Shown piece after piece: positions 16,908 through 36,374 of a stretch of 64,000 bases of DNA (positions within the stretch are counted from its first letter, which is position 1; each line of letters starts with the position of its first letter). A program made the translations under genes and the position numbers. Source of the stretch: an uncultured Deinococcaceae bacterium (GTDB taxonomy: Bacteria > Deinococcota > Deinococci > Deinococcales > Deinococcaceae); assembly GCA_964252075.1 (NCBI GenBank), contig CAXULY010000029.1:1-64000 (forward strand), written 5' to 3'. The notes under the pieces were generated by a model. It had not been told where the DNA came from. It saw only the letters and a list, made by a program, of their open reading frames with translations, and searched no databases.

Positions 16908-19900
16908 TTACGGCACCTGCGCCTTAAAGCACACCACACCTTTACCGGTCGAGGCCGCTACCGTCCCCACATTTACCGTGAGGTTCGTGGCGGTCAGGTC
17001 GCCCGCGTCGTCACCACTGGCAGAGGTCAGGGCCGTGCCAGCGGGCGCAGCCGTCGCGCCGCTCGCGAGCGAAGCGCCGTTCGCGTACAGAATGCCCAGG
17101 CCCGCGCCGTAGCCGTTCAGCTGAGCGGGGCCACTGGCGACGATGGTGTCCTTCAGGACCAGACTGGTCGCGTTCCCCGCCCCAGTGTTCGTGTACGCAA
17201 TGCAGTACTCCAGGTATTCGCCCGGCTTACCGACGGCGCCGGCACTGCTGAAGGTTCCAGTGTTGGAACTTAGGCTGGAGCCGATGTTGCGCACATACTT
17301 GGAGAGCGTGACGGACGGCGCCACAACCGTCAGGGTGGTGCGGGTCGGGTCGGACACGCCCGTCACCGTGGGGTCGTCGGTCGGCACGTTGACGCTCTGC
17401 TGCGAGACGACGCCCTGGTTGCTGATCGGGGATGCAACCCCCGAGTTGCCCACCTGCACCTGGAAGGTCACGGTCGCCGTGGCACCTGCCGCGAGCGTTC
17501 CCGCCACCTGCCCCGCGCTGTTGATGAGGGACGCCGTGCCGTAAGGATAGGACGAAGCGTTCAGGTTGGTGCCGTTGAGCGTCGCTGTGTTGGGAATATA
17601 GGTCAGCCCCGAAGGCAGCACATCCAAGAATTTGACATTGGCCGCCGCAACCGTCGTACTCGTGTTCTTGACCGCAATGGTGTAGGTGAGCGTGCCGCCC
17701 AGAGTGGTCGAGCTCGCAGAGACCGTTTTGGTCGCGGTCAGGTTCGGGTTAAAGCCGAAGTCCCGGGACGTGATGCTCGCACCGCCTGTCAGGGTCACGC
17801 TGTATGTCCCGGAGGCAGGGCTGATTAAAGTTGCATTTCCGAGATCAGGGTCGGTCTTGCGGATCGTCGCAGTGTATGGATCCGTGGGCACGTTCAGGAA
17901 GCTGTAGTTGCCGTTGGCGTCCGTGAAAGCTGTGCTGGTGATGCCGCTGCTGCTGTTGGTGAGCGTGACCGGGATGCCAGCGCCGAACCGCGAGTCAGGC
18001 GTGCTGAACGAGCTGCTGTTGTCCATGTCACCGTACACCGTGCCCGAAATGTTGCCCGTGGTGATGCCCGTACAGGTCGTCCACGACAGGTCGTCAAGTG
18101 CCAGGTCGTTGCCACCGCCACCACCGGTGTTGTTGCGGAAACGCACCGTAACCTCGCTGGCCGCGCCGGTGTTGACGAGCAGTGAGAAGTTCTTCCAGAT
18201 GGGCGCGTTGGTGTTGGCGATGTTGCCTGAGGTGAAGATGCTCTGCCCTTCACTGCCGTCGGCGGTCGCGGGGTTGTCGTCATCGTCCACGCCGGTGTAG
18301 TCCACCTCAATGGACACGTTGGGCACGATTCCGGCGTTGTTGGCGATCAGGTTCACGATCCAGCCGCCCACCTCATAGTTGGTATTGGGCGTCACCGCAA
18401 ACTTTTCTTGGTAGAACACGTTCGCGCTCAGATTGGCGTTCACCACCATCATCTGTCCAGTCGCGTTGCCGGTCGTGTGATCGCCAAGCACATGCCAGGC
18501 ACCGTCCTGGCGGTCACTGTCGAAGTTGGTGACTTCATACTCCCCGTCCTCAGGGCTGTAATTGCCTGGGGAAGCCACCTGGGTCCGGGTGTTGTATGTG
18601 TAGCCTGTGGAGCCCAGGGAACCTGTCGCCGCCAGGGTCCTGCGGGTCGGCGGGTTGGTGGACGAGCCAGCTGCCACGCTTCCAAAAGTGCCGTTCAACG
18701 AGAACAGGTTGGTGCCCAGCGTACCGCCATGGACCAAGCACGCCCCCGAAGGCTCAGCGATAAAAGGCATGGTGATGGTCGCGGGTGAAGGGTCCTGCTG
18801 GCCCGCCGCGTCCCTGGCCGCGACCTGAAAGCTGACGGTCAGCGCGCCGTTGCTGGTGGGGTCCACCTGCAGGCTGTTGACCACGTAAGCCGTGATGCAC
18901 TGCCCGGCGCTGACGACGACACTCTGATAGAACAGGGTGGCGTTGGTGGGCAGCGACGTGATGCAGAATGTGCTGCCCGCGCCAAGAGCACCGTCCTCAG
19001 GGTCGGTGCCCGTCAGGGTCGGAACCACGAACCGGCTCGTGCCCGAAGCGTTTTGCTGGCTGCTGGCGGTGGCTGAGGTCGTATCGGGCAGCTGTTCAAT
19101 GCCAAAGTTCTGCGCGGTGACGTTGGCCGCAGCGATGGTCACGGCAAGATTGCCATCAGCAGTGGCGTCCTTGGTGCCGTTGCTGTTCTCACCGGTATTG
19201 ACCCAATTGCTCGGCACGCTGCCCGTGGTTGGAGCGGTGCCGCCCACCGCCACGCTACCGTTCGTGCTGAGGCGCAGGGTGTAGGTGGTGTTGGTCAACA
19301 ACCCCCCGATGGTATAGGTTCCGTCAGTCGCACTGACTGTCGCTTTGCCCGCCACAGTGGTGCCATTCACGGCGTACACGGTCAGACTGCTCGTGCCTGC
19401 ATTCGTTCCAGCTTCACCCGTCGCGGCCTGCACGCCATCGCCATTTATGTCGTCAAAGACCGTTCCAGAGATGCTTGCGGTCACAAGTAGGGACGCACTG
19501 GCTGCTGCAGCGTTGGTTCCACCGGTGGTGTCTAATGCGCTAGCGGCGATAGTGTTGGTGTAGGTACCAACGCTAGAAGCAGTGACGCTCACGGTGATGG
19601 TGCATCCGCCCGCCGGAATCTTGCCTCCAGCATTCAACGTGATGGTACCTGTATTGATGCTAGCTGACACAGTGTTGCCCGTGATGGTGGTGCATGTGCC
19701 GCCCAAGTTGGGGGTGGCGGCAATCACCATGTTGCTGGGCGTGGTGGGAAGGTTATCGGTGAAGGTTGACTGCAGGTACACGGGCGCCAGGTTGGTGTTT
19801 CCTAGCGTGATGGTGAGTGTACTTGTCGCGCCTGGCGCGATGCTGTTAGGCGAAAAGCTCTTGGTGACCGTGGGCGAGTTGGGCAGGGTGGCGCAGGTGC

Positions 19901-20735
19901 CCAGGTCCGTCAGGGAGTCGCTGATGGTGGCACTTGGTGTGGCTCCGGTAACACCTGTAGTGGGATTCAGAGGGTAGATGCCGGGCAGCCCGGTGGTTGG
20001 GCCGGTGGCCGAACTGATCAAGAAGTTGCCGATCCTTGGGTCAATGGAAAGGCCGTTCACTGTGCCCGTCCAAGCCGTCGCAGCTGTGGACTTAATGGCC
20101 ACGGGGCTGGAGAGCAATCCGGTCGTCAGGTCCAGCTTGAACAGATAGGGACCGGCAACACCAGCAGTAGGCGTGGCGGTCGCCACGATGTAAGCCTGCC
20201 CAGCGCTATCGATGGCGAGGTCACCATTAGTGGTAGTGCCCAAGGTGTATCCAGTCGGAGCGGTAAAGGGCGTATAACTACCGCCTACGATGTTACCGCT
20301 TGCATCAACACGACCAAAAGTCTTGTTATTCAAATATACGTAATAGTTTCCTGAAGCGTCTGTGGTTCCACCGACAACCAAAACATTGGTTCCAGCCACT
20401 GTAGGCAGTGGGTTCAGCGTTCCAATACTGGTATCTACTAGAGTATTCGGATCAATATAGCGGACAGTATTGGTGTCCCGGTTGATGTAGTAGATGCGCC
20501 CGTTCGTGGGGCTCTGAGTAATAGCGTTGGAATTGGCCGAGGCAGCTGGAAAAAGCGGCACGATGGTGTTGTTGGTGTAGTTATAGATGCCGATCTGGTT
20601 GCTGGCCGCGCTGGTCATGGTGTAGGTGGCTGTACAGTAGCTCGCGGCAGCCTGGGCTGCGCCCATGAGGCCCAGCGCCACGGGCAGCAACCGCCGCAGC
20701 CGAATGAGGGACGACTTCACTGCATGCAGGTTCAC
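16908..20735 (-). CDS. Large secreted adhesin-like protein (propeller-like N-terminus, SdrD-B-like and DUF11 domains); putative tip subunit
   Basis: GTG start overlaps the upstream stop and has a GGAGG RBS; signal peptide ..LGLMGAAQA; ISGTVFDDINGDG and ISGTVYGD repeats; K..PG...TYTI..N..D.LP DUF11 repeats; Thr/Ser/Gly-rich. Confidence 0.82.
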   Translation of the reverse strand: MNLHAVKSSLIRLRRLLPVALGLMGAAQAAASYCTATYTMTSAASNQIGIYNYTNNTIVPLFPAASANSNAITQSPTNGRIYYINRDTNTVRYIDPNTLVDTSIGTLNPLPTVAGTNVLVVGGTTDASGNYYVYLNNKTFGRVDASGNIVGGSYTPFTAPTGYTLGTTTNGDLAIDSAGQAYIVATATPTAGVAGPYLFKLDLTTGLLSSPVAIKSTAATAWTGTVNGLSIDPRIGNFLISSATGPTTGLPGIYPLNPTTGVTGATPSATISDSLTDLGTCATLPNSPTVTKSFSPNSIAPGATSTLTITLGNTNLAPVYLQSTFTDNLPTTPSNMVIAATPNLGGTCTTITGNTVSASINTGTITLNAGGKIPAGGCTITVSVTASSVGTYTNTIAASALDTTGGTNAAAASASLLVTASISGTVFDDINGDGVQAATGEAGTNAGTSSLTVYAVNGTTVAGKATVSATDGTYTIGGLLTNTTYTLRLSTNGSVAVGGTAPTTGSVPSNWVNTGENSNGTKDATADGNLAVTIAAANVTAQNFGIEQLPDTTSATASSQQNASGTSRFVVPTLTGTDPEDGALGAGSTFCITSLPTNATLFYQSVVVSAGQCITAYVVNSLQVDPTSNGALTVSFQVAARDAAGQQDPSPATITMPFIAEPSGACLVHGGTLGTNLFSLNGTFGSVAAGSSTNPPTRRTLAATGSLGSTGYTYNTRTQVASPGNYSPEDGEYEVTNFDSDRQDGAWHVLGDHTTGNATGQMMVVNANLSANVFYQEKFAVTPNTNYEVGGWIVNLIANNAGIVPNVSIEVDYTGVDDDDNPATADGSEGQSIFTSGNIANTNAPIWKNFSLLVNTGAASEVTVRFRNNTGGGGGNDLALDDLSWTTCTGITTGNISGTVYGDMDNSSSFSTPDSRFGAGIPVTLTNSSSGITSTAFTDANGNYSFLNVPTDPYTATIRKTDPDLGNATLISPASGTYSVTLTGGASITSRDFGFNPNLTATKTVSASSTTLGGTLTYTIAVKNTSTTVAAANVKFLDVLPSGLTYIPNTATLNGTNLNASSYPYGTASLINSAGQVAGTLAAGATATVTFQVQVGNSGVASPISNQGVVSQQSVNVPTDDPTVTGVSDPTRTTLTVVAPSVTLSKYVRNIGSSLSSNTGTFSSAGAVGKPGEYLEYCIAYTNTGAGNATSLVLKDTIVASGPAQLNGYGAGLGILYANGASLASGATAAPAGTALTSASGDDAGDLTATNLTVNVGTVAASTGKGVVCFKAQVP

Positions 20736-23700
20736 TTGTTGCCTCCCTGTTCGTCGAGCAGCAGGTCCAGCCGGAGGTAGGGGCCGGGTCTGGTGAAGGT
20801 GGTGCCGAGGCCGTCGAAGCCCAGCACGTTGTACCCCACGGTCAGCCACGTGCCGGGCAGGGCGCGCAGGCTGCCCTCCAGGCCCAGACCGAAGAGGCTG
20901 GTGCCGGTGGCTGGTTGCACCAGGGCGCGCGCGCTGGCGCCCACGCCAAGGCGGTCGGTCACGTAGTACGTGCCGCCGAGGCTCGGCTGGTAGGTGAAGC
21001 TGCCGGGGTCGTCGAGGAGCACGCGGGCGTCGAGGCCGCCGCGGAGCGCCCAGGTGGCGCGGTGGTACTCGGCGGCGAGCTGCCCCATGAGTTGCGGCTG
21101 GTCACCGGCGAGGCTGCCGTTCTGGTAGCGCAGGTACCCGATGCTGTTCCACGCGCCGTCGCGCCACGCGTACCCGAGGGCGAGTTTCGTGCCGGGGGTG
21201 GCGCTGAGTTCGGTGAGGGCGTCGGCGGTGACGCTGAAGGTGCTGCTGAGGGCGCCGGTGGCGCCGGCGCGCAGGACGGTGCGCCATACGCCGGCGCTGT
21301 AGGCGAGGTCGCCGCCGGCGGTGGCGCTGAGGGTGGTGCTCTGGTAGCGGAGGTCGCTGCCGACGCTGAAGTCGTTCGTGCCGGCGGTCATGTCGCGCAG
21401 GTACGCGCCGCGCAGGCCGACGCTGAAGGTGCTGTTCAGGGGGAGGCTGGTGTCCATGCCGAAGCGGGCGCGGTTGCCGCTGCCGCTGGCGTTGGGGAGG
21501 TCGTACCCGACGGAGAGGTTGGTGCCGCCGAGGGTGGTATCGATGCCGAAGCTCGCGACGCTGCCGGTGTTCCAGTTGAGGTCCTCGGCGAGTTTCAGTT
21601 TGACGTTGGGGGTGAGGGCGTATTTCACGGCGAAGACCGTTTCGGGGTCCACGTTGCCGGTGAAGGGCTGGCTGTGCGTGACGTCGATGTCGAAGGGCGC
21701 GGCGTGGTAGCCGACGCCGAGGAGACCGCTGACGCCCATCTGGTCGCCGAAGCTGTAGCGCAGGCCGCCGCCGACCGTGAAGGGGTTCAGCTGGTAGTCC
21801 ACGCGCGCGGCGAGGTCGCCCTGGTGGCTGTCGGGGCCGCTGGTGTAGGTGCCGCCGAGGCTGGCGCTGAGGCTGGGCGCGAGTTGCTGGCGCAGCTGGG
21901 CGCTGGCGCTGGTGCCGACCGCGATGGGCGCGAGGCCCGCGTAGGTGGCGTCCTGGTACGCGGCGCGCGCGCTGAATTCGGTGCTGCCCGCCTTGCCGCT
22001 CACGTCGGCGCTGGCCTGCAGGCCTCCGCCCTGCGTGAGGACCTGGGCGCTGCCGCTGAGGTTCGCGCCCGCGAAGCTGGCGCGCGCGCCCGCAGTGAGT
22101 TTGCCGTCGAGGTTCACGGCGGCGACGCCGACGCTCGTCGCGCCGTTCGTGTACTTGGCCTGCGCGCCGTACGCGAGGGCGCGGTTCGCGCCGCCGTCGT
22201 TCAGGCGGTACGCGGCCTGCACCACGAGGGTGTTGAGTTGCGCGTCGGTGCGGGCGAGGGCCTGGGAGAGCGTGACCACGCCGGTGCCGGTGTCGAGGCT
22301 GTAGTCGGCGTAGCGGGTGAGCGTGCGGCGAGAGAGTTCCTGGCCCGTCACGCGGTCGAGCGTGAGGAGTTCCAGCGTCTCGGAGTCCGGGACGATGTCG
22401 CCGTGCGCGAGGCGCAGGAGGCGCGTGCCGTTCGGGGTGAGGCGCTCGCCGGTGATCTGGTCGCTGGAGATGAGGGCCGCGAAGCCGCCCACCTGCACGT
22501 TGCCTTTGGTGCTGAAGCTGAGCGCCGTGACGCTCTCCCCGAGGGGCAGCACGTCGATGGGGGTGGGGCTCAGGCGGTACTGCGCGCTGAAGGCGGGGTG
22601 GTCGTAGCGGAAGGCGATGGGGTCCTGACCTTCGAGCGGCACGCTTTCGGTGCTGGCGTCGCCGTACAGGGGGTAGCGGGTGTTGGGGTTGGTGCTGGTG
22701 GGCAGGCCGTCCTTGTTGCCCGCGGCGTACAGTTTGCCGCTCCCGAGGGTGCCCTCGAAGTAGCCTTTGGCGCTCCAATGGAAGTCCACGGCGCCGCCGC
22801 TGAGGCCGACGGTGGCGCTCGCGGCGCCCACGCCGAGCGCGCCGACGTCGGGGCGGATGGGCAGACTGACGCGCTGCACGCGGTCACTCACCGCGAACTC
22901 CAGTTCGAGGGTGGTGGGCGCGCTCTGCGGCGGGAGGATCAGTTCGCCCTCGCCGTCCTTGAGCGCCACCTGGTAGCCGCCCTGGCTGGGGTCGGCGTCC
23001 GCCTGCGCGGACTCGATGGAGGAGCGCACCGTGACGGTGGGTTGCGCGGTGGTGAGGCCGGAGGCGTCGAGGACGCGCAGCTTGAAGCGCAGCGGGGTGC
23101 TGCCGTCCGCGAGGCCCTGCACGGCCTGCACGTCCACGCGCTCGGCCTGCCCGGCGTAGTACACCTTGACCTGCTCGCCCCCCAGCACGAGGGTGTTCAC
23201 GCCCGTCTTGAGGCGAATCCCGAAGTACGTGACGCGTTCGGTGCCGGCGCTGCTGTCCACGTCGCGCTGCCCGATGGCGCTGTCCGGCAGGGCCTCGCCG
23301 TTGATGCGCGGCCCGAGGGTGGCGCCGCTGGGGCCCTGCACCACGACCGTGATGCGGTCGCGGTCGCGGATGACAGTGCCGTCCAGGGGGAGGCGCAGGG
23401 CGCCGGGGTTCTCGGCGGTCTGCCCGCTGGCGGTGGGCGTTGCGGCGGCGTAGTCCTGGAGGTCGAAGGGCCCCTGCAGGACCTCCTGGCGGTCGCGGGG
23501 GTAGCGCGCGAAGAGCGCGGGCAGCGGCAGGGCGCCGAGCGCGTCGGTGTGCGTGACGCGGTACGTGATCACGCCGCGCCCGGTGGGCGTGATCGGCCAG
23601 TACAGGCGCCCGCCCTTGCCGACCAGCGGGTCGGGGATGGGCTGGCCGTTCAGGGCGCTGGTGCCGGGCAGGTACGTCGCGCCTGCGGGGAGCGTCTGGG

Positions 23701-23887
23701 CGATCACCAGGGCGGTCGCCTCGACGGGCGCGTCGAAGGGAACCTCCAGGCGAGACTCGCGCGTGACGGCGTTCGTCGCGTCGGTGGTCGCGGGTGCGCT
23801 CAGGGGGGCGGCGGGGACGGTGGGCGCGTTCTGAGCGGCGGCCCCCACCAGCAGCGAGGCCATCAGCAGGGCAAGGGCGCCTCTCAC
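20732..23887 (-). CDS. Large outer-membrane beta-barrel protein with periplasmic Ig-like domains (usher-like)
   Basis: Signal peptide; YPLYGDAS motif; roughly 500 C-terminal residues of alternating amphipathic strands ending WLTVGYNVLGF..GPYLRLDLLLDE. Confidence 0.75.
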   Translation of the reverse strand: MRGALALLMASLLVGAAAQNAPTVPAAPLSAPATTDATNAVTRESRLEVPFDAPVEATALVIAQTLPAGATYLPGTSALNGQPIPDPLVGKGGRLYWPITPTGRGVITYRVTHTDALGALPLPALFARYPRDRQEVLQGPFDLQDYAAATPTASGQTAENPGALRLPLDGTVIRDRDRITVVVQGPSGATLGPRINGEALPDSAIGQRDVDSSAGTERVTYFGIRLKTGVNTLVLGGEQVKVYYAGQAERVDVQAVQGLADGSTPLRFKLRVLDASGLTTAQPTVTVRSSIESAQADADPSQGGYQVALKDGEGELILPPQSAPTTLELEFAVSDRVQRVSLPIRPDVGALGVGAASATVGLSGGAVDFHWSAKGYFEGTLGSGKLYAAGNKDGLPTSTNPNTRYPLYGDASTESVPLEGQDPIAFRYDHPAFSAQYRLSPTPIDVLPLGESVTALSFSTKGNVQVGGFAALISSDQITGERLTPNGTRLLRLAHGDIVPDSETLELLTLDRVTGQELSRRTLTRYADYSLDTGTGVVTLSQALARTDAQLNTLVVQAAYRLNDGGANRALAYGAQAKYTNGATSVGVAAVNLDGKLTAGARASFAGANLSGSAQVLTQGGGLQASADVSGKAGSTEFSARAAYQDATYAGLAPIAVGTSASAQLRQQLAPSLSASLGGTYTSGPDSHQGDLAARVDYQLNPFTVGGGLRYSFGDQMGVSGLLGVGYHAAPFDIDVTHSQPFTGNVDPETVFAVKYALTPNVKLKLAEDLNWNTGSVASFGIDTTLGGTNLSVGYDLPNASGSGNRARFGMDTSLPLNSTFSVGLRGAYLRDMTAGTNDFSVGSDLRYQSTTLSATAGGDLAYSAGVWRTVLRAGATGALSSTFSVTADALTELSATPGTKLALGYAWRDGAWNSIGYLRYQNGSLAGDQPQLMGQLAAEYHRATWALRGGLDARVLLDDPGSFTYQPSLGGTYYVTDRLGVGASARALVQPATGTSLFGLGLEGSLRALPGTWLTVGYNVLGFDGLGTTFTRPGPYLRLDLLLDEQGGNK

Positions 23888-26637
23888 GGGTTCCTCCAGG
23901 TGACGTTGGGATCGGTGACGGCGCGCTCGCTGGCCCCGTCGAAGTGGAAGTGGTAGGTGAGGGTGGTGCCCTCGGCGGTGACGCCCACGAGGTCCAGCAC
24001 GTTCTGACCGTCCGTGAGGGTGGCGCCTGCGGGCAGCGGGTCATCCAGGTGCAGCGGGCCGCTGGCGGGGTTGGAGGTGAGGGTGAGGGTGACGGTGTAG
24101 CGGCCGTCCTCGTCCTGCGTGACCTGCTTGCGCACGGTGAGCGGCCCAACGCGCAGGGTGGTGTCGCGGAAGGCGCTCGCCTCGCCCTCCAGGGCGGCCA
24201 GCGGGAAGTCCACGCTGGTGAGGCCGCGCGCGTACACGCCCCGGCTGCCGGGTCGCCCGCCGTCCTGCGGCAGGCTGAGCGGCGCGTACGGCACGCTCGC
24301 GGGGTCCAGGCGCAGGGCGGTGAAGCCCTCCGGGACGTTCGCGAAGTGGTAGCGGCCCGACGCGTCCGTCAGCACGATGCGGCCGTCCGCGAGCACGATG
24401 CGGGCGCGCTCGATGGGGGTGTCGAGGTCCGCCTGGAAGACACCGTCGCGGTTGCGGTCCACGAACACCACCCCGATGAGGTCCGCGAGGGTGGAGAACA
24501 TACCGGGGCGCAACTTCAGGCGCGCGCGCGCCTCGTTCGAGGCGACCACGGAGCCGTTCACGCCCTGCCCCATCACACTCACGACGTTCACGAGCTCACC
24601 GTTCGCTTCGGGCGTGACGCGCACGGCGTAGGTCAGCACGACCTCGCCCTGCGGGGCGAGCGCACCGAGCGTCCAGGTGAGGACGCGGCCCGCGACCTGC
24701 GGGTCGCCGAGCGGCTGGCCGCCCAGCTGCGCGCTGCCGGGGATGTACGTCACGCCGGCGGGCAGGGTGTCCGTGATGGTGAGGGTGTTCAGGTGGCCGG
24801 CCTGCGAGAGGTTGCGGATGTGCACCGTGTAATCCAGGCGGTCCCCGACGGTCGCGTCGAGCGGCGTGACGCTCTTGCTCACGGCGAGCGCCGCGGACCA
24901 CACGGGGCTCGTCACGGTGGGGGAACCGAGCGGCGCGGGGAACTGATCGCCGCCCAGCGTGAAGGTGTTGGTGATGCGGTCGCCGTCCTTGGCGTCCGCC
25001 GCGACGGTCGCCTGAATGGTCAGGCGGCGCGTCTCGCCCGGCGCGAGCGACGCGACGGTCCAGACCACGGCGCCATCCTGCAGGGCGCCGCCATCGGAGG
25101 CGCTCACGAAGGTCAGGTCGCTGGACAGCGGGTCGCGGATCACGACGCCCGTGAGGGGCACGTCGTAGGGGTTGTGCACGCTGAGGGTGTAGGTGAGGGC
25201 CTGACCCGCGGTGACCTGACCCGTGGGGTCCACGGTCTTCTGGAGTTCCGGCAGGCGGGACTCAATGCGGCTGATGGTGTCGGTGGTGCTGTTCGTCGTG
25301 CCGCGCGTTCCCGTCGCCGTGAGGACCAGCTTCAGGGCGTCGCTGCCCGCGGGCTTCACGCACACCTGGAAGCTCAGGGTCTGACCGGGCTCCAGGTGGA
25401 CGGGCTGCGCGATGGGCGCGCCGTCCGTGGTGAGGAGGCTCACGTCGCCGGAGCCCGCCGCGAGGGTGGGCGCCACCGTAAAGTCATCGGTGACGTTCCC
25501 AGTGTTCTGGATGGTCTGCGTGAAGCACACGGTCTGCCCCACCACGCCGAAGTCCTTCGACTGCGTGTCCTGCGCGCTGCCCTCGGGCGCCGTGGGGTTG
25601 CCGACCGGCCCGAGCGCGACGCCCGGCGTGAAGCGCACGTCCAGGGTCGCGCCCGCCTGCCCGCCCGGAACGCCGCTGGACGTGACGGTCGCGAGGTTCC
25701 GCAGCGTCTTGTTCTCCGCGGCGGCGGAGGTAAGCAGCTGGAAGGTCAAGGTGGCGCGCGCGCCCGGCGCGAGGCTCGGCACGCGCAGGCGAATGCCCGC
25801 CACCGCGCCGCCCGCGCTGGCGGAGTACGTCGCGCCGTCCGCGCTGTACTCCACGGTGCCGACGCTGGCGCTCGCGCTGCCCGCCACGAAGGTCGCGCCG
25901 GACAGCGCGGCGGTGTTCAGGGGGTCCGTGACGATCACTTCACGCGACGCGCCCTTGCCGCCGTTCGTGACAGTCAGCGTGACGGTGCTGGCCTCGCCGG
26001 GCTTCACGAGCGCCGGGCTGAAGGACTTGCTGAGGGCCAGGGCGGGCGGCTGGCCCACCAGGACCGCCGCGTAGTTGTTCGTGTCGCCGGCGCCATCACC
26101 GCACGAGGCGTTCAGGCTGACGAACGCCCCATCCCGGTCGCTGTCGGCGGTGGAGACGACCATCAGCAGCTTCGCGGACTGATCGGCGTCCAGCGTGACG
26201 CTGGACGCCTCGGGCTCGCCCGCATCGAGCGCGCCATTGCCGTTGCTGTCCAGGTAGATCTTGACGCCCGGCTGGAAGGCCGAGGTGCGGTCAACCACGC
26301 TGGCGAGCGCGAAGGTGTTGCTCTGGTTGCCCGCGTTCAGCACGCTGTACGAGAAGATCGCCTGCTCTCCCGGCAGGATACTCGCCGTCTGACCGGGCTG
26401 GTCGGGCGTGCCGTCCGGCGTCACGCTCACCGCGCACACGCCACTCACGGTGGTCGTGACCGTGGTGGACACGTCCGAGATGGCCGCGCCGTCCGCATCA
26501 ATGGCGGCGACGCTCGCCTGGTTCGTGATGACCGTATCGGCTGGCGTTCCGCCAGCGAACGCCGCGCTGTGCAGGCTCAGACTGAGCGCTGCCAGACACG
26601 GCGCGAGCACGGTGATGAGGGTGGACTGTTTGCGCAC
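23884..26637 (-). CDS. Secreted multi-DUF11 protein with an SdrD-B-like C-terminal domain; putative base or adaptor subunit
   Basis: GGAGG RBS and GTG 26637; signal ..SAAFA; three complete DUF11 repeats; GVVFVDRNRDG..TDASGRYHF. Confidence 0.82.
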   Translation of the reverse strand: MRKQSTLITVLAPCLAALSLSLHSAAFAGGTPADTVITNQASVAAIDADGAAISDVSTTVTTTVSGVCAVSVTPDGTPDQPGQTASILPGEQAIFSYSVLNAGNQSNTFALASVVDRTSAFQPGVKIYLDSNGNGALDAGEPEASSVTLDADQSAKLLMVVSTADSDRDGAFVSLNASCGDGAGDTNNYAAVLVGQPPALALSKSFSPALVKPGEASTVTLTVTNGGKGASREVIVTDPLNTAALSGATFVAGSASASVGTVEYSADGATYSASAGGAVAGIRLRVPSLAPGARATLTFQLLTSAAAENKTLRNLATVTSSGVPGGQAGATLDVRFTPGVALGPVGNPTAPEGSAQDTQSKDFGVVGQTVCFTQTIQNTGNVTDDFTVAPTLAAGSGDVSLLTTDGAPIAQPVHLEPGQTLSFQVCVKPAGSDALKLVLTATGTRGTTNSTTDTISRIESRLPELQKTVDPTGQVTAGQALTYTLSVHNPYDVPLTGVVIRDPLSSDLTFVSASDGGALQDGAVVWTVASLAPGETRRLTIQATVAADAKDGDRITNTFTLGGDQFPAPLGSPTVTSPVWSAALAVSKSVTPLDATVGDRLDYTVHIRNLSQAGHLNTLTITDTLPAGVTYIPGSAQLGGQPLGDPQVAGRVLTWTLGALAPQGEVVLTYAVRVTPEANGELVNVVSVMGQGVNGSVVASNEARARLKLRPGMFSTLADLIGVVFVDRNRDGVFQADLDTPIERARIVLADGRIVLTDASGRYHFANVPEGFTALRLDPASVPYAPLSLPQDGGRPGSRGVYARGLTSVDFPLAALEGEASAFRDTTLRVGPLTVRKQVTQDEDGRYTVTLTLTSNPASGPLHLDDPLPAGATLTDGQNVLDLVGVTAEGTTLTYHFHFDGASERAVTDPNVTWRNP

Positions 26638-26736
26638 GGGGCCTCCGGGAACAGCGCTCAGTGGGGCGCGGGAAAGGGCGGGGTACTCAGGCTCAAAACG
26701 GTGTTCTGCTGTTGGGGTGACGCCAAAGGTGAGGTG

Positions 26737-26762
26737 GGCGCGCACCATTGGTGGTGCGCGCC
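26737..26762. promoter_or_regulatory. Intra-operon stem-loop after the putative major subunit gene
   Basis: 11-bp stem GGCGCGCACCA/TGGTGCGCGCC, 8 nt after the stop, with no U-tract. Confidence 0.6.
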
Positions 26763-26770
26763 GGGATGGG

Positions 26771-28792
26771 TCAGTTGACGGTGACCTTGAAGGTCTCGGT
26801 GATGCCCTGACCGGGCTTGAGGATGTCGAGGGTCGAGATGGTGTTGTCGTTGTTGGTGTCGATGCCGATCTCCACCAGCTGGCCTGCCGTGGGGGCCGTC
26901 GTGGGGGTCGTGGAGGTCTGCCAGGCACCGCCATTGAAGCGGTACAGCAGTTTGTAGCCGGTGGTGCCGTAGGCGTTGGTGTCGGTGATGCTGGCCGTCA
27001 CGCTCGCGAAGGTGGTGTTCGTGGGCACCGTGTCCTTGAGGATGTAGTTGGTGAGGTTGCTGTTGTTGGTGTTGCTGGCCGCGATGGTGTAGGTCAAGGT
27101 GGCGCCAGGAGCCGCGTTCGTGAGGTCAACCGTCTTGGCGGGCTTGTAGGAGTTCGCCGTGATCTGAACGGTGAACTTGTCGTTGTTGTCCGTCGAGGTG
27201 GCGCCCGTCGTGGCGGAGGTCGCCGTTTGCGTGAGGGTGTACGTGCCAGGCAGGGTGTTTTGCGGGACGTTGACCTGAGCGACCACGCAGTACGTGGCGC
27301 CCGCGGCGAGCGCGCCCGTGCTGGTGATGGCGGTGGTGTTGTCCGCCACGCCGTCGCAGTTGGCGTCCGCGTAGTACGTGACGGGCGTAGCGGTGGTGCC
27401 GGTCGGGGTGGTGATGTTCACCGTGCCCGTCAAGCTGAAGGTGTCCGGCGCGGTGCCGTTGTTCTTGACGACCATCGGGAAGGTGGTAGGGGTGGTGCCC
27501 GTGGCGGCGCCCGTGGTGGTCACCGTGTTGTTCGGCGTGCCGGGCGTCGGGGTGCCGTTCACGCTGTCGGTGAACTGCACGCTCGGCAGGTTCACGATGT
27601 TGGTGGTGGTGTCCGTGCCGCCTGTGCCGGTGCCGCCGTTCGTGGTCAGGCTGTTCTCACTGGTGCTGGTCACGGTGGCCGTGAAGGGCGCGGTGGGGCT
27701 GGTGGGAACCGAGCCGGCGGGGTACGTCACCGTGACGTAGAAGGTGTACTCGCCTGCCAGTCCCGGATTGACGGTGGGCGTCTTGGTGATGGGGCTGGTG
27801 CCAGCGGCATCGGAGGAGATGGTCACGGTCGCGCCCGTCGGGGCGTTGCTCAGGGCCGCCGTCAGGTCGAAGATGTCCGGGCGGTTGCCGTTGTTGACCA
27901 CCGAGTTCTTGAAGGTCACGCTGGTGCTGGTGGTGGTGGCCTGCGCGTTCTGGCTGTCGCCGTTGTAGTTGATGGTCACGCCGCCCTGGGTGTAGGGCGT
28001 GACGGCGGTGGTGTTCGCGGGGTCGAGTTTGCCGTCCGCGTCCGCATCGGTGTTTGGGCCGACCTTGCCCGCGTCGGTGCGGGAGAGCGTGACCTGGTTG
28101 AAGTTGTTGGCGTCCTGGTTCAGGTAGGGGGCGGTGGTGCCCGCAATGGCGACGGTCGAGGTGTAGCTGGTGCCGGTGGCGCCTGCGGGGTCATAGGTGC
28201 CGGAGCCCACCGGGTCGGCGCCCAGTTTGGTGCCGTTGGCCGAGTTGGCGCCGGTGGCGGGGACCACATACCGCTGAATGAGCTTGACGGTCGCGTTACC
28301 GGTGGTGTTGTTCGCCACCACAACGCTGGTGACCGCCGTGGCACCTTCGGTGCCATCCAGCACACCGTTGCCGTTGGTGTCCACGAAGTACTGAACGCCC
28401 GTGATGCCGCTGGTGGTGCTGAGGGCACCGTTCACCGAGTACAGGGTGGACAGCGTCACCTGAACGGGTGTGTTGCCCGTGTTCGTGACGGTGTACGGGA
28501 AATCCACGGTCGCGCCTGGCAGCGTGTTCGTCTGGCTCTGGCCGGGGGTGGCGGGGTGCGGCCCGAGGTCGGCACTGGAGTCGTTGGGGGTGATGGTGAA
28601 GGTCGGGACGGCGCTCACCGTGGTGGTCACGGTGTTGGAGTCGATCGGTGTCTGGGCCGTGCCGGTCGCGTCATTGAAGGTGGCGGTGGCGGTGTTGCTG
28701 ATCTGCGTGCCAGCGGAAGTGCCGCCGGCGGCGAGGGCAGAGCCGGCGGCCAGGGCGGCCATCACGGCGATGAGCTTGCTGTACTTGTTCAC
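26771..28792 (-). CDS. Secreted Thr-rich Ig-fold/DUF11 protein; putative major filament subunit
   Basis: GGAGGA RBS and GTG 28792; signal peptide ..AAGSALA; N-terminal AGTQISNTATATF; repeated V.N.GN..D.F.L units; C-terminal DUF11 ending FKVTVN. Confidence 0.85.
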   Translation of the reverse strand: MNKYSKLIAVMAALAAGSALAAGGTSAGTQISNTATATFNDATGTAQTPIDSNTVTTTVSAVPTFTITPNDSSADLGPHPATPGQSQTNTLPGATVDFPYTVTNTGNTPVQVTLSTLYSVNGALSTTSGITGVQYFVDTNGNGVLDGTEGATAVTSVVVANNTTGNATVKLIQRYVVPATGANSANGTKLGADPVGSGTYDPAGATGTSYTSTVAIAGTTAPYLNQDANNFNQVTLSRTDAGKVGPNTDADADGKLDPANTTAVTPYTQGGVTINYNGDSQNAQATTTSTSVTFKNSVVNNGNRPDIFDLTAALSNAPTGATVTISSDAAGTSPITKTPTVNPGLAGEYTFYVTVTYPAGSVPTSPTAPFTATVTSTSENSLTTNGGTGTGGTDTTTNIVNLPSVQFTDSVNGTPTPGTPNNTVTTTGAATGTTPTTFPMVVKNNGTAPDTFSLTGTVNITTPTGTTATPVTYYADANCDGVADNTTAITSTGALAAGATYCVVAQVNVPQNTLPGTYTLTQTATSATTGATSTDNNDKFTVQITANSYKPAKTVDLTNAAPGATLTYTIAASNTNNSNLTNYILKDTVPTNTTFASVTASITDTNAYGTTGYKLLYRFNGGAWQTSTTPTTAPTAGQLVEIGIDTNNDNTISTLDILKPGQGITETFKVTVN

Positions 28793-28824
28793 TGTTCCTC
28801 CTGAAAAGGGCTGGGCGGCGGGCA

Positions 28825-29325
28825 TCATTGGACTTTCACGCGAAGGTTGAGCTTGAGGGCCTGAGCGCCACCGAAGGTGGGCAGGGTCCAGCGGACGTTG
28901 GTGTACTCGGTGGGGGAAACAGTGACCTCCTTGGTGACGCTCTTGCCGTTCTCAACCTTCGTGACGGTGCGTTTGAGCGGCGGCACACCATAGGTCTTGC
29001 CACCGTCGAAGCTGAATTCCGTGGTGGCGCCCTGAGGTGCGCCCGTCTGGGACATGTAGGTGGTGCCCTTGGGTACAGGGAGTTGCAGGCGCACGTTCGT
29101 CAGGGCGGCGCTGCCCGTGTTGCTGACCTGCAGTTGCTGCTCCAGCACGTTGCCGGGCGTGGTTTCCTTGGGGGACGTCACGAGGGCTTCCTGGGTCTTG
29201 CCGTCCTTGGTGATGGTCTGCACGAGGAACTGGCTGAGCACCAGCTTCAGCGGGCTGCTGGCCTGCTGCGCAGCGGCGATGCCCGCGAGGGCGAGGGCGA
29301 CGGAGAGGAAGCGGCGTTGGGGCAT
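28825..29325 (-). CDS. Small secreted single-DUF11-like protein; putative chaperone
   Basis: Signal peptide; PGNVLEQQLQVSNTG..L.LPVPKGTTY..FSFDGGKTYG..YTNVRWT..LRVKVQ; RBS AAGGAG. Confidence 0.8.
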   Translation of the reverse strand: MPQRRFLSVALALAGIAAAQQASSPLKLVLSQFLVQTITKDGKTQEALVTSPKETTPGNVLEQQLQVSNTGSAALTNVRLQLPVPKGTTYMSQTGAPQGATTEFSFDGGKTYGVPPLKRTVTKVENGKSVTKEVTVSPTEYTNVRWTLPTFGGAQALKLNLRVKVQ

Positions 29326-29393
29326 GGTGTTCTCCTTGGGGGCGGGGTGGCCTGCATGACAAGAGGTGCGACCGAAGACAGCAGGGGGTGCCT

Positions 29394-29469
29394 GTCAGCC
29401 GTGGTCGCACCACTGGCTCCACGTCTGACAGGTGCCCGAATACACCAGACGCTTCATTGCCTTGCTGAC
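29394..29469 (-). ncRNA. c-di-GMP-II riboswitch
   Basis: Minus strand reads GTCAGC-AAGGCAATGAA-GCGTCTGG-TGTATTCGGGCACCTG-TCAGACGT-GGAGCCAGTGGTGCGACC-ACG-GCTGAC. It shows the P1 and P2 helices, the AUGAA/GGAG kink-turn-like element and the GCACC/GGTGC pseudoknot of the class II consensus as I recall it. Confidence 0.85.
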
Positions 29470-29828: not shown

Positions 29829-31013
<1,185 letters not shown>

Positions 31014-31138
31014 AGGGACCTCCATACGCGGCTCACCGGCCGGGTTTCATGGCGCTCGCGGGGCGGGGCGCCCCGCTTCGGCCGCCAGGATAGCGGGGGG
31101 TGGCCGCGCCATGCGTGAGGTGAGGCAGGATGTGCGCC

Positions 31139-31666
31139 TCAGCTCAGGCGCTTCTCCATGGCGATCTCGTTGCAGTTCTCGAAGAAGGGGCAGCGCTGGC
31201 ACTCACTCCACACTTTCGGGTGCAGGTTCGTCTTGTCGATGCGGGTGAAGCCGCACTTCTCGAAGAAGCCCTGCTGGTACGTCCACGCGAACAGCGCGGG
31301 GAGCGCGAGTTCGCGCGCCTCGTGCTCGCAGGCCTCCACCAGCGCCTTGCCCAGGCCGCGGCCCTGCATGGCGGGGTGAATGGCGAGGCCGCGCACCTCC
31401 GCGAGGTCGTGCGACAGCAGGTGCAGGCCGCACACGCCCGCGAGGCCCCCTGGCTGGCCCTCATGCGGCTCCGCGATCACCAGCTGGAAATCGCGGATGC
31501 TCTCCGCGAGCAGGCCCCTGCTGCGCACCAGCATCAGGCCGCGCGCCGCCCAGTACCCAATGAGTTCGTGGATGGCGTCAATGTCGCTGAGGCGCGCCTT
31601 GCGGAAGGTGAGCGGCGCCCGCGGGTGCAGGTCCGGCACCGCGATGGAGTCCAGCATCAGGGTCAT
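31139..31666 (-). CDS. GNAT acetyltransferase, probable short-form N-acetylglutamate synthase (ArgA-like)
   Basis: LAEVRGLAIHP..QGRGLGKALV, FFEKCGF, LHPKVWSECQRCPFFENCNEIAM; located in the arg operon. Confidence 0.75.
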   Translation of the reverse strand: MTLMLDSIAVPDLHPRAPLTFRKARLSDIDAIHELIGYWAARGLMLVRSRGLLAESIRDFQLVIAEPHEGQPGGLAGVCGLHLLSHDLAEVRGLAIHPAMQGRGLGKALVEACEHEARELALPALFAWTYQQGFFEKCGFTRIDKTNLHPKVWSECQRCPFFENCNEIAMEKRLS

Positions 31667-32157
31667 TGCGTGAGGTCCTTCCGCCAGGCGTGCTCGTCGT
31701 GAATCCAGCCGCGCGTGAGGCCGCTCACGACCTGCGGCACGTCCGGCAGGGCCGCCGCGAGGTCCGTGACGGGCACCGCCACGAAGCCCAGGCGCTCCCA
31801 GTACGCGCCCGCGTCGCTGCTGAATAGGTACACCGCGTGGTCGCCGCGCAGGGTGGCGAGCGTGAGGGCGCTCTGCGCGAGCGCACGGCCCACGCCGAGG
31901 CCGCGCGCCTCGGGCAGCACGGACGCGGAGCGCAGCAGGGACGCGCCCCGCCCGTGCTCCATGCCAATGCAGCCGACCGGCACGCCCGCGTGGCGCGCGA
32001 TCCAGTACGTGCTGCCCTCGAAGGTCGCGCTGCTGGTGTACAGGCCGACGGCACCCGCGAGGTCCCGCACGAGGTCCAGCTCGTCCGGGCGGGCGGGGTC
32101 CACCTTCAGGCTCAGCTCGGGGTACGCGAGGGGGGACGGGTGGGGGTGGGCGGTCAT
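31663..32157 (-). CDS. GNAT family acetyltransferase
   Basis: LLRSASVLPEARGLGVGRAL, YWERLGF. Confidence 0.82.
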   Translation of the reverse strand: MTAHPHPSPLAYPELSLKVDPARPDELDLVRDLAGAVGLYTSSATFEGSTYWIARHAGVPVGCIGMEHGRGASLLRSASVLPEARGLGVGRALAQSALTLATLRGDHAVYLFSSDAGAYWERLGFVAVPVTDLAAALPDVPQVVSGLTRGWIHDEHAWRKDLTQ

Positions 32158-33575: not shown

Positions 33576-33603
33576 TGCGGTCCTCGGGTCAGGCGGTGCG
33601 GGG

Positions 33604-34080
33604 TCATGCGGGCACCTGCAGGGCTTTGGTCATGACTTTCGGGGCGGGGCTGCTGGCGCTGGCGTGGCCGTAGGTGGCGGTGTCGTCCAGGCGGTAGCCG
33701 AGGCGCTCGTAGAAGGGAATGACGCTCAGGTTGTAGAGGCTCACGGCGAGCAGCACGCGCTCGAAGCCCTGTTGTGTGCCGTAAGCTTCGACGGCGCGCA
33801 CGAGGGCGGCCGCGATGCCCTGGCTGCGCGCGTCCGGGCGCACGGCAAGCTTCATGAGGGTGAGGGTGGGCCGCTCGTCCCAGTAACAGAAACAACCCAC
33901 CGCCTCGCCCGCCTGCTCGGCGAGGAAGCCGCCCCCGGCGCGCAGGTTCTCGCGCGCGCCGTCCACCGTGAGGCGGTGGCCGCTGGAGCGCGGGTCGATG
34001 TCGTCCCGCCACGCGGCGTGCACGAGGGCGGTGATGGTGGCGGCGTCCTCCGGGGCGGCGGGGCGGATAGTGAAGGTCAC
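33604..34080 (-). CDS. GNAT family acetyltransferase
   Basis: KLAVRPDARSQGIAAALV, FYERLGY. Confidence 0.82.
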   Translation of the reverse strand: MTFTIRPAAPEDAATITALVHAAWRDDIDPRSSGHRLTVDGARENLRAGGGFLAEQAGEAVGCFCYWDERPTLTLMKLAVRPDARSQGIAAALVRAVEAYGTQQGFERVLLAVSLYNLSVIPFYERLGYRLDDTATYGHASASSPAPKVMTKALQVPA

Positions 34081-34990: not shown

Positions 34991-34991
34991 G

Positions 34992-36230
<1,239 letters not shown>

Positions 36231-36374
36231 GTCGGTATTGTCTCCCGTGGGCGTGAAGGGGGCGTCTGCGGAGGTGGTGGGTCGTGCATGAGGCCGCCCG
36301 ACGCGAACGCGCCCGGTCACCAAGAAGCTCTGGTGCCGGGGGGCGTTAACGTCGGGCGGTCAGGGTCTGCATCG

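What the first reader, a model, noticed from the sequence alone, without database searches (positions are those of the whole stretch)
26771..28792. Split DUF11 domain in the putative shaft: N-terminal donor strands, C-terminal acceptor, possible intermolecular isopeptide bond
Seen: complete DUF11 repeats in this operon read K(T/S)V..G...TYT...N.....D.LP ... F.V.V followed by two more strands starting (I/L)xN (for example TFQVQV..PISNQGVV, TIQATV..RITNTFTL, TYAVRV..ELVNVVSV). The last domain of this protein (~27148-26771) has the Lys (AKTVD) and Asp (LKDTVP) but stops at FKVTVN. Its mature N-terminus (~28726-28616) is exactly the missing piece: AGTQISNTATATF..DSNTVTTTV. Established: Lys-Asn isopeptide bonds catalysed by a nearby Asp/Glu form in CnaA/CnaB pilin folds, and donor-strand exchange builds chaperone-usher pili. 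Inference: subunit n+1 completes subunit n and is autocatalytically crosslinked to it, giving a covalent polymer without sortase (a natural SpyTag-like pair).
Basis: partly seen in the sequence, partly recalled or inferred. Interest (0 to 1): 0.93.

Follow-up and report, generated by a model that had tools for sequence, protein, structure and literature searches.

The report
Split-domain covalent pilus operon, Deinococcus
This Deinococcus gene encodes a surface-fibre subunit whose last fold lacks two strands that its own front end carries, so subunits probably plug into one another head to tail and lock with a self-made chemical bond, in a widespread gene cluster nobody seems to have described.

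Summary
The 673-aa secreted protein (26771-28792, minus strand) ends in a DUF11/CLIPPER domain that stops after the F strand. Its mature N-terminus is homologous to exactly the two missing strands: a profile of complete domains matches C-terminal residues 553-673 at positions 5-112 and residues 24-59 at positions 114-147.

The isopeptide triad is split. Lys553 and Asp587 lie in the C-terminal piece and Asn33 in the N-terminal piece. In 145 non-identical family members the Asn is kept in 145 and the Asp in 142.

A complex prediction places the N-terminal strands into the C-terminal domain: score 0.81, best control 0.00.

The operon argues for joining between molecules. The tip protein has only an acceptor yet keeps Lys and Asp. 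The shaft has donor and acceptor. The anchor, joined to a giant outer-membrane barrel, has only a donor. This order recurs in 29 complete operons from many diderm phyla. The genome has no sortase or usher.

The covalent bond and the polymer remain inferred. The closest precedents are BsaA and archaeal threads. Verdict: new variant of a known kind, high interest.

The parts
26771..28792 (-). Shaft subunit gene (673 aa; P0001). It encodes a signal peptide, the N-terminal donor strands, several Ig-like beta-sandwich domains and a C-terminal incomplete DUF11/CLIPPER acceptor domain.
   Evidence: ORF and translation. GTG start behind AGGAGG. The database protein P0001 is 100% identical. AF2 model: mean pLDDT 83.2, all-beta.
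28730..28792 (-). Signal peptide (VNKYSKLIAVMAALAAGSALA).
   Evidence: Read from the sequence. Modelled as a helix at residues 4-21 in AF2. The cleavage site is inferred, not predicted by a tool.
28616..28723 (-). Donor segment, residues 24-59. These are the two strands homologous to the last two strands (G, H) of a complete DUF11 domain.
   Evidence: Own profile positions 114-147, E 4e-4. Invariant I31, N33, A35, S52, N53, V55, V59 in 26 orthologues. In the interface of the complex model.
28694..28696 (-). Codon of Asn33, the proposed isopeptide Asn.
   Evidence: Translated. Asn at profile position 122 in 145 of 145 family members. Aligns with the Asn of complete repeats and with the Asn-bearing strand of 9IFR.
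26774..27148 (-). Acceptor domain, residues 549-673. This is DUF11 strands A to F only; the protein ends right after the F strand.
   Evidence: Own profile positions 5-112 of 148, E 6e-11. Pfam DUF11 positions 6-90 of 114, TIGR01451 42.5 bits. All 26 orthologues end at the same place.
27134..27136 (-). Codon of Lys553, the proposed isopeptide Lys.
   Evidence: Translated. Invariant in A1. Aligns with profile Lys5. Touches donor residue 55 in the complex model.
27032..27034 (-). Codon of Asp587, the proposed catalytic acid.
   Evidence: Translated. Asp at profile position 40 in 142 of 145, with 1 Glu and 2 Asn. Its strand 578-588 pairs with donor strand 31-42.
28825..29325 (-). Small secreted Ig-like protein (166 aa, 'P5'), DUF11-like but without the Lys and Asp. 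Candidate chaperone or assembly factor (inferred).
   Evidence: Pfam DUF11 23.8 bits, positions 10-84. A homologue lies directly upstream of the pilin in 76 of 80 loci. The family consensus has TLPIP where xDxLP would be, and no conserved Lys.
23884..26637 (-). Donor-only stalk protein ('P2', about 917 aa). It has an N-terminal donor segment, complete DUF11 repeats and an SdrD_B-like domain. It is fused to the barrel protein in most relatives.
   Evidence: Pfam and NCBIfam. Donor at 26446-26556. No C-terminal acceptor. Fused forms.
26446..26556 (-). Donor segment of P2 (AGGTPADTVITNQ...TTVTTTV), with the Asn retained.
   Evidence: Translation. Weak profile match at positions 112-147, score 1.6. 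The same motif appears in anchor proteins of other phyla.
20732..23887 (-). Outer-membrane protein ('P3', 1051 aa). Ig-like N-terminal part plus a very large beta-barrel. It overlaps the end of P2 by 4 bases.
   Evidence: AF2 pLDDT 83.0, with at least 30 long antiparallel strands in 351-1045. Best Foldseek matches are LptD, MtrB and TonB-dependent barrels, TM <= 0.22. No Pfam family.
16908..20849 (-). Tip protein ('P4', up to 1313 aa; the true start is probably near 20717, at the signal peptide). It has no donor segment, and its C-terminal domain is an acceptor.
   Evidence: Pfam DUF7933, DUF11. C-terminal residues 1207-1312 match profile positions 12-111 and end at the stop. Start region.
16911..17312 (-). 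Acceptor domain of the tip protein. Lys (LSKYV) and Asp (LKDTIV) are present and it ends after the F strand.
   Evidence: Translation. In 24 acceptor-only tip proteins, Asp is kept in 24 of 24 and Lys is aligned in 20 of 24.

Best explanation
The gene encodes the shaft subunit of a surface fibre built from a split CLIPPER (DUF11) domain.

Each subunit ends in a beta-sandwich that lacks its last two strands and carries the isopeptide Lys553 and the catalytic Asp587. Each subunit begins, right after the signal peptide, with those two strands, which carry Asn33. The N-terminal strands of one molecule insert into the C-terminal domain of another (donor-strand complementation, head to tail). The completed domain then forms its Lys-Asn isopeptide bond by itself, now between two chains.

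The operon supplies the ends. A tip protein has an acceptor only. An anchor has a donor only, and its stalk is joined (here as two adjacent genes, elsewhere as one) to a giant outer-membrane barrel. The predicted order is tip, then one or more shaft subunits, then anchor, then outer membrane.

**Shown here:**
- the split of the domain;
- the conservation of the triad;
- the donor and acceptor pattern across operons;
- a prediction that the two pieces fit.

**Inferred:**
- the bond itself;
- the number of shaft copies;
- the export route;
- the role of the small protein P5 as a chaperone.
For: 1. **Complementary profile matches.** Residues 553-673 match positions 5-112 and residues 24-59 match positions 114-147 of a profile built from complete domains without this family.
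2. **Triad at the crystal-verified positions.** The triad of 9IFR is Lys715, Asp748, Asn806 (PMC12617251 Table 1). 9IFR aligns to a complete repeat of the operon at E 2.8e-6, with K, D and N in register.
3. **Conservation in 145 non-identical donor-plus-acceptor proteins.** Asn 145 of 145. Asp 142 of 145. Lys 122 of 145 in one alignment column, with the Deinococcus-type rows shown carrying it a few columns on.
4. **Complex prediction of residues 540-673 with residues 22-62.** Scores 0.81, 0.84 and 0.81; best of 3 controls 0.00. The mark was reached by 116 of 157 solved complexes and by 2 of 215 mismatched pairs. The runs agree in at least 98% of contacts and the partner's pLDDT is at least 85. 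Strand 31-42 pairs antiparallel with 578-588, which bears Asp587. Strand 50-62 pairs with 549-562, which bears Lys553.
5. **Operon logic in 29 complete operons.** The pilin has donor and acceptor in 25. The anchor has a donor only in 20 and never an acceptor. The tip has an acceptor only in 22.
6. **Tips keep the reactive pair.** Tip acceptors keep Asp in 24 of 24, and Lys is aligned in 20 of 24, although they have no Asn strand of their own.
7. **The Asn is variable only in anchors.** Anchor donors carry Ser instead of Asn in 5 of 40, while shaft donors never vary. So the Asn is not needed merely for the strand.
8. **No alternative machinery.** No sortase or usher in a genome that is 99.88% complete, and no LPXTG at the C-terminus.
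9. **Topology.** The donor's second strand leads within a few residues into domain 1, as in tandem DUF11 arrays. A polymer would therefore reproduce a continuous stalk.
Against: - No experiment and no atomic coordinates were available. The Lys Nzeta to Asn Cgamma distance could not be measured, and the tool's pair list does not name the pair 553 with 33.
- The complex prediction cannot tell joining between chains from joining within one chain. In addition, my own alignment was used, so the calibration counts hold only roughly.
- In the AF2 monomer the N-terminal strands have pLDDT of about 82-85 and pTM is 0.61. That would fit a model folded back on itself.
- The Pfam DUF11 score is below the curated cut-off.
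- Nine of the 26 orthologues gave no profile hit.
- In 9 of 29 anchors and 6 of 29 tips my criteria detected nothing.
- Five anchors lack the Asn, so strand complementation without a bond clearly exists in the family.
- No data on expression or on fibres were found.
Confidence: 0.6

Rival explanations
1. Donor-strand complementation between subunits occurs, but no covalent bond forms. The fibre is held together as chaperone-usher or type V pili are, and the Lys, Asp and Asn are kept for packing.
For: Five of 40 anchor proteins carry Ser in place of the donor Asn, and some Roseateles-type anchors carry Ala or Ser. So the strand can work without it. Some DUF11 domains lack the triad (PMC12617251, passage read).
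Against: Asn is kept in 145 of 145 and Asp in 142 of 145 shaft subunits. Asp is kept in 24 of 24 tips. This is a level of conservation not seen at neighbouring positions. The triad sits at the positions that form the bond in the 9IFR crystal structure.
Confidence: 0.15
2. The N-terminal strands complete the same molecule's C-terminal domain, with or without an isopeptide bond. The result is a closed, ring-like monomeric adhesin rather than a fibre.
For: The AF2 monomer gives the N-terminal strands pLDDT of about 82-85 and a pTM of 0.61, as expected if the model closes on itself. The complex prediction is blind to this difference.
Against: It does not explain acceptor-only tips that keep Lys and Asp. 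It does not explain donor-only anchors with no incomplete domain (0 of 29 with an acceptor). It does not explain the conserved order small protein, pilin, anchor, tip. A multi-domain stalk of Ig-like modules would have to bend back on itself.
Confidence: 0.1
3. The three proteins join once each, through the same split domains (tip, shaft, anchor). The result is a three-piece fibrillar adhesin of fixed length, not a polymer.
For: The operon logic requires only one shaft copy. The shaft is itself about 650 residues of tandem Ig-like domains.
Against: The shaft's own donor fits its own acceptor in the complex prediction. Nothing seen in the sequence would block shaft-on-shaft joining.
Confidence: 0.15

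Closest known systems
BsaA of Clostridium perfringens (TasA family), the 'exchange and lock' model (bioRxiv 10.1101/2024.11.04.621531; abstract and section 8 read)
   Same: An N-terminal donor strand carries an Asn (N35) that inserts into the next subunit's sheet. It is proposed to form an autocatalytic isopeptide bond with a Lys (K74), helped by an acid (E56).
   Different: BsaA has another fold (TasA/camelysin-like, not CnaA-like DUF11) and comes from a monoderm host. It is a single-domain subunit and has no outer-membrane barrel. It is not a recognisable split of a domain that elsewhere makes the same bond within one chain.
Archaeal thread filament, Saci_0406 (PMC9715654; passages read)
   Same: Donor-strand complementation by an N-terminal tail, plus a covalent isopeptide link between subunits, without a known enzyme.
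   Different: The bond joins the N-terminal alpha-amino group of Asp24 to Asn57 of subunit n+2. There is no Lys-Asn-Asp triad, the fold is different, the subunits are glycosylated, and the host is archaeal.
CLIPPER (DUF11) intramolecular isopeptide domain, PDB 9IFR (PMC12617251; abstract and passages read)
   Same: Same domain family and same triad positions. Complete copies lie in the same operon.
   Different: There the bond is within one contiguous domain of a long adhesin. Here the Asn strand is on the other end of the polypeptide, and in tip and anchor proteins on another polypeptide.
Chaperone-usher pili (type 1, P pili); recalled knowledge, apart from the search listings
   Same: Incomplete Ig-like fold completed by the N-terminal extension of the next subunit. 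An acceptor-only tip adhesin. An outer-membrane barrel at the base. An adjacent small periplasmic Ig-like protein.
   Different: No usher family and no PapD-like chaperone family. Two strands are donated, not one. There is a covalent triad. The barrel is fused, or adjacent, to the last subunit.
Sortase-assembled pili of Gram-positive bacteria (review PMC13721041, passage read)
   Same: Covalent isopeptide links between pilins made of CnaA/CnaB-type domains.
   Different: Those links are made by a sortase between a pilin-motif Lys and the cleaved LPXTG Thr. Here there is no sortase in the genome and no LPXTG.

Membership tests
DUF11 / CLIPPER isopeptide domain (PF01345, TIGR01451) | Sequence match above the curated cut-off | tested here: met
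   TIGR01451 scores 42.5 bits against a cut-off of 24. Pfam PF01345 reaches only 22.5 bits against 24.6. So this is met by one curated model and narrowly missed by the other.
DUF11 / CLIPPER isopeptide domain (PF01345, TIGR01451) | Lys, Asp and Asn triad within one contiguous domain | tested here: not met
   Lys553 and Asp587 are in the C-terminal piece. The protein ends at profile position 112 of 148. The Asn lies in residues 24-59. The triad is present, but split.
Chaperone-usher pilus | Usher protein (PF00577) | tested here: not met
   No match in the genome (99.88% complete); the control rang in E. coli. P3 has no Pfam family. Its fold matches are LptD, MtrB and TonB-dependent barrels.
Chaperone-usher pilus | PapD-like periplasmic chaperone | tested here: not met
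   P5 matches only DUF11-type families at E <= 0.1 and no PapD family. Whether it acts as a chaperone was not tested.
Chaperone-usher pilus | Incomplete Ig fold completed by the next subunit's N-terminal extension | tested here: inconclusive
   The fit is supported by the profile split and the complex prediction, 0.81 against 0.00. That the partner is another chain rests on operon logic.
Sortase-dependent pilus | Sortase gene and a C-terminal LPXTG signal | tested here: not met
   No PF04203 match in the genome; the controls rang. The protein ends FKVTVN.
TasA/BsaA exchange-and-lock fibres | TasA/camelysin-type fold | tested here: not met
   No such Pfam family at E <= 0.1. The domain is DUF11.
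TasA/BsaA exchange-and-lock fibres | Donor-strand Asn, with an acceptor Lys and an acid placed to form an isopeptide bond | tested here: inconclusive
   The residues are conserved and lie in the predicted interface. The geometry and the bond were not measurable with these tools.
Type V (autotransporter) secretion, for the anchor P2 and P3 | N-terminal passenger and C-terminal outer-membrane barrel in one protein | tested here: inconclusive
   The two are fused in other phyla and in many Deinococcus. No autotransporter Pfam family was found. The barrel part has far more strands than the 12 of classical autotransporters (that number is recalled).

The most novel reading that the evidence does not exclude
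This is an unrecognised, phylogenetically widespread class of surface fibre in diderm bacteria. It is assembled by covalent donor-strand exchange. A CLIPPER domain is split between consecutive subunits and re-forms its own Lys-Asn bond across the junction. A small Ig-like protein serves as the dedicated chaperone. The last subunit is fused to a giant barrel that both exports and anchors the fibre. It would be a third route to covalent pili, beside sortases and the TasA-type lock, and the first in bacteria with an outer membrane.
Probability: 0.4. Interest if true: 0.92.

Novelty: new variant of a known kind. Interest (0 to 1): 0.85.

Why it matters
- **A new kind of pilus in Gram-negative bacteria.** By textbook accounts (my recall), pili of bacteria with an outer membrane are held together without covalent bonds, and covalent pili are a sortase-dependent feature of Gram-positive bacteria. 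If this reading is right, a large and unannotated family breaks that rule. It was found in Burkholderiales, Steroidobacter, Verrucomicrobiota, Acidobacteriota, Nitrospira, Eisenbacteria, a Chloroflexota lineage and Deinococcota.
- **A point about evolution.** It would show how an intramolecular isopeptide domain can become a polymerisation device simply by moving two strands to the other end of the protein.
- **A resource for protein engineering.** It would offer many natural, orthogonal tag-and-catcher pairs, some from thermophiles and radiation-resistant species.
- **An untested barrel.** It points to a very large outer-membrane barrel of unknown function as a candidate export and anchoring machine.
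- **Easy to test.** One peptide, one domain and one gel would do.

Tried and rejected
- **Sequence search of the PDB with the whole protein.** Only a chance-level hit to LytH, E 0.13.
- **Foldseek and VIA-align on the whole monomer model.** Generic tandem Ig-like matches (PrgB, RbmA, integrins, the CfaB fusion) and nothing specific.
- **Alignment A2 of 22 diverse members.** It was too divergent for the search for related loci. The closer alignment A3 was used instead, so the 80 loci lean towards Proteobacteria-like members.
- **RNA evidence.** One RNA run held 0.06 of the sampled words. Laid on 26000-29400, it gave three short contig pieces only: 19 to 196 bases, with one 196-base piece carrying 2 differences at depth 2.9. 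This is no evidence for or against expression.
- **Earlier notes of this scan.** None for this genome.
- **Protein Atlas for P5.** Only unnamed clusters, with DUF11 on 17-32% of members.
- **Literature.** Nine searches found no paper on a split DUF11 or CLIPPER domain, or on a covalent donor-strand pilus in a diderm bacterium. The library lacks most subscription journals, and bioRxiv supplements are closed, so this is not proof of absence.
- **Considered and rejected.** A classical chaperone-usher system and a sortase pilus.
- **P5 as a covalent cap.** Set aside, because its family lacks the Lys and Asp.
Full report
**What is at the locus**

The window comes from a Deinococcus; the closest named homologues are Deinococcus proteins. 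On the minus strand, five genes lie head to tail between an arginine-biosynthesis cluster and a small kinase-like gene.

| Name | Coordinates | Size | Description |
|---|---|---|---|
| P5 | 28825-29325 | 166 aa | small secreted protein |
| P1 | 26771-28792 | 673 aa | the finding |
| P2 | 23884-26637 | about 917 aa | stalk protein |
| P3 | 20732-23887 | 1051 aa | outer-membrane protein; overlaps P2 by 4 bases |
| P4 | 16908-20849 | up to 1313 aa | tip protein |

P1 starts at a GTG behind AGGAGG, and the database protein P0001 starts there too. Pfam and NCBIfam see DUF11-type repeats in all but P3. They also see 'isopeptide-forming fimbrial domain' (TIGR04226) matches in P2 and P4.

**Checking the observation**

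P1 ends ...FKVTVN directly after its F strand. It begins, after the signal peptide, with a 36-residue segment of two strands.

To test this without relying on the eye, I built a profile of 148 positions from 74 complete DUF11 domains of related proteins, leaving out all P1 orthologues.

- In P1 the profile matches residues 553-673 at positions 5-112 (E 6e-11) and residues 24-59 at positions 114-147 (E 4e-4, search of 30 sequences). The two matches are complementary and abut.
- The same pair of matches appeared in 17 of the 26 Deinococcus orthologues given. The other 9 gave no hit at E <= 10.
- All 26 share invariant I31, N33, A35, S52, N53, V55, V59 and K553, and all end at the same place.
- Of the 120 listed homologues, 88 showed both pieces, 9 the donor only, 9 the acceptor only and 14 neither. 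A simple donor motif stood in the first 110 residues of 115.

**The triad**

PMC12617251 renames DUF11 'CLIPPER' (abstract and passages read). It reports the crystal structure 9IFR with an intramolecular bond, listing Lys715, Asp748 and Asn806. 9IFR aligns to a complete repeat of P2 (E 2.8e-6), with its Lys, its Asp-bearing motif and its Asn-bearing strand on the K, D and N of the repeat. Through the profile, these are Lys553, Asp587 and Asn33 of P1.

In 145 non-identical proteins that have both pieces, drawn from the protein hits, the window and the ORFs of 80 loci:

- the Asn is kept in 145;
- the Asp is kept in 142, with 1 Glu and 2 Asn;
- a Lys stands in one alignment column of the A strand in 122, and the Deinococcus-type rows shown carry it a few columns further on.

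**Do the pieces fit?**

I predicted a complex of residues 540-673 with residues 22-62, each with its 26-row alignment.

- It scored 0.81, 0.84 and 0.81. The best of three controls scored 0.00.
- The mark was reached by 116 of 157 solved complexes and by 2 of 215 mismatched pairs. The runs agree in at least 98% of contacts, and the partner's pLDDT is at least 85.
- The counts hold only roughly, because my own alignment was used.
- Donor strand 31-42 pairs antiparallel with strand 578-588, which carries Asp587. Donor strand 50-62 runs along strand 549-562, which carries Lys553 (for example 553 with 55).

The model supports binding; it does not show it. It also cannot say whether the two pieces belong to one chain or to two.

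**One chain or two?**

The operon answers this better than any fold.

P4 has no donor segment. Its C-terminal domain matches profile positions 12-111 and then the protein stops, with Lys and Asp present. P2 has a donor segment with the Asn and no incomplete domain.

A scan of one genome per species found at least 602 pattern matches. Of these, 171 were confirmed as relatives and the best 80 were kept. They come from Burkholderiales (Roseateles, Polaromonas, Rhodoferax, Thiobacillus), Steroidobacter, Verrucomicrobiota, Acidobacteriota, Nitrospira, Eisenbacteria and a Limnocylindria MAG.

- A P5 homologue lies just upstream of the pilin in 76 of the 80 loci.
- P2 and P3 match one and the same giant ORF of 1600-2250 aa there. 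Many Deinococcus also have the fused form of about 1600 aa.

In the 29 loci that hold the whole chain:

| Protein | Donor and acceptor | Donor only | Acceptor only | Nothing detected |
|---|---|---|---|---|
| Pilin | 25 | 4 | 0 | 0 |
| Anchor | 0 | 20 | 0 | 9 |
| Tip | 1 (a loose motif match in L035) | 0 | 22 | 6 |

Twenty-three acceptor-only tip ORFs plus P4 keep the Asp in 24 of 24. The Lys is aligned in 20 of 24, and a Lys is present in that region in all 24. A domain that keeps a reactive Lys and its catalytic Asp, but has no Asn strand in its own chain, makes sense only if the Asn comes from another chain.

Conversely, among 40 anchor-like ORFs I read Asn at the donor position in 23 and Ser in 5. 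No clean motif was found in 12. Some Roseateles-type anchors show a divergent strand with Ala or Ser. So the strand tolerates loss of the Asn where only one junction per fibre is at stake, yet the shaft never loses it.

**Proposed mechanism**

The tip (acceptor only) receives the donor of a shaft subunit. Each shaft subunit's acceptor receives the donor of the next. The anchor's donor closes the chain and ties it to the outer-membrane barrel. Each junction re-creates a complete CLIPPER domain, which then forms its Lys-Asn bond between chains.

In the AF2 model the second donor strand is followed within a few residues by the first strand of domain 1. The assembled fibre would therefore have the topology of a continuous tandem-domain stalk.

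The genome has no sortase and no usher (99.88% complete; the controls rang).

P3 is predicted, at pLDDT 83.0, as Ig-like domains followed by at least 30 long antiparallel strands. Its best structural neighbours are LptD, MtrB and TonB-dependent barrels, at low TM-scores of at most 0.22. It is a very large barrel with no close solved relative.

These points are open:

- whether the subunits pass through that barrel and join at its base, as in chaperone-usher pili;
- whether instead they are added outside, onto the displayed anchor;
- the role of P5. It is a DUF11-like domain whose family lacks the Lys and has TLPIP in place of xDxLP. A chaperone role is my inference from its position and conservation only.

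**What remains against the reading**

- The bond is not shown.
- The monomer model's confident N-terminal strands (pLDDT about 82-85, pTM 0.61) are what one would see if the model closes on itself.
- My detection criteria missed part of the anchors and tips.
- The shaft may be used once rather than many times.
- I found no expression or fibre data. The one RNA run held only short pieces.

**Comparison with what is known**

- **BsaA of Clostridium perfringens.** The principle of a donor strand whose Asn is locked to a Lys of the next subunit with the help of an acid has been proposed for BsaA, in the TasA fold. The proposal rests on models and mutants (abstract and section 8 read).
- **Archaeal threads.** They combine strand complementation with a different bond, from the N-terminal amine to Asn of subunit n+2 (passages read).
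- **The CLIPPER survey.** In the passages I read, it treats the domain as intramolecular only. A search of its text for 'split' found nothing.
- **Literature overall.** Nine literature searches found nothing on a split DUF11 domain or on a covalent donor-strand pilus in a diderm bacterium. The library lacks most subscription journals.

I therefore rate this a new variant of a known kind: the same idea as BsaA, in another fold and another envelope, with its own conserved four- or five-gene machinery and a wide distribution. In Deinococcota, 122 of 201 sampled genomes had a match to P1 at E <= 1e-10. Some of those matches are partial and may be other DUF11 proteins.

**Verdict**

Confidence in the full mechanism is 0.6. 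Interest is 0.85.

Noticed in passing
genome contig C2, 30410-32266 (+), outside the window: A lone ORF (618 aa from stop to stop) ends in an acceptor-type domain, matching profile positions 10-111 right up to its stop codon. Its N-terminal region resembles that of the tip protein in the Roseateles operon L035. It may be an orphan alternative tip for the same shaft.
   Followed up: partly
window 23884-23887: P2 and P3 are separate genes here, overlapping by 4 bases. In other phyla and in many Deinococcus they are one protein of 1600-2250 aa. This is either a gene fission or an unnoticed frameshift.
   Followed up: partly
L025, L028, L034, L075, L078 (anchor ORFs); also L035 and L043: The anchor's donor strand carries Ser (or, in Roseateles-type anchors, Ala or Ser) where the shaft always has Asn. 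The base junction may therefore be non-covalent in some lineages.
   Followed up: partly
window 28825-29325 (-): The small protein P5 is as conserved in position as the pilin itself (76 of 80 loci). It has its own invariant motif (EYR.LRW) and no known function. The Atlas finds only unnamed clusters.
   Followed up: partly
C-terminal acceptor domains of non-Deinococcus pilins and of tips (for example L035 18126-21080; window 16911-17312): Two conserved Cys, one in the B strand and one near the F strand or in an insertion after the Lys, suggest a disulfide in the acceptor domain. The Deinococcus shaft lacks them.
   Followed up: no
window 29829-36323: Upstream neighbours look unrelated to the fibre. 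By their sequences they appear to be carbamoyl-phosphate synthase small subunit, three small acetyltransferase-like ORFs, argininosuccinate lyase and argininosuccinate synthase. This is my reading of the translations and was not scanned against a library.
   Followed up: no
window 16908-20849 (-), residues about 70-320 of P4: The N-terminal part of the tip protein has no family match, apart from two DUF7933 domains further on. It is presumably the binding module, and its target is unknown.
   Followed up: no
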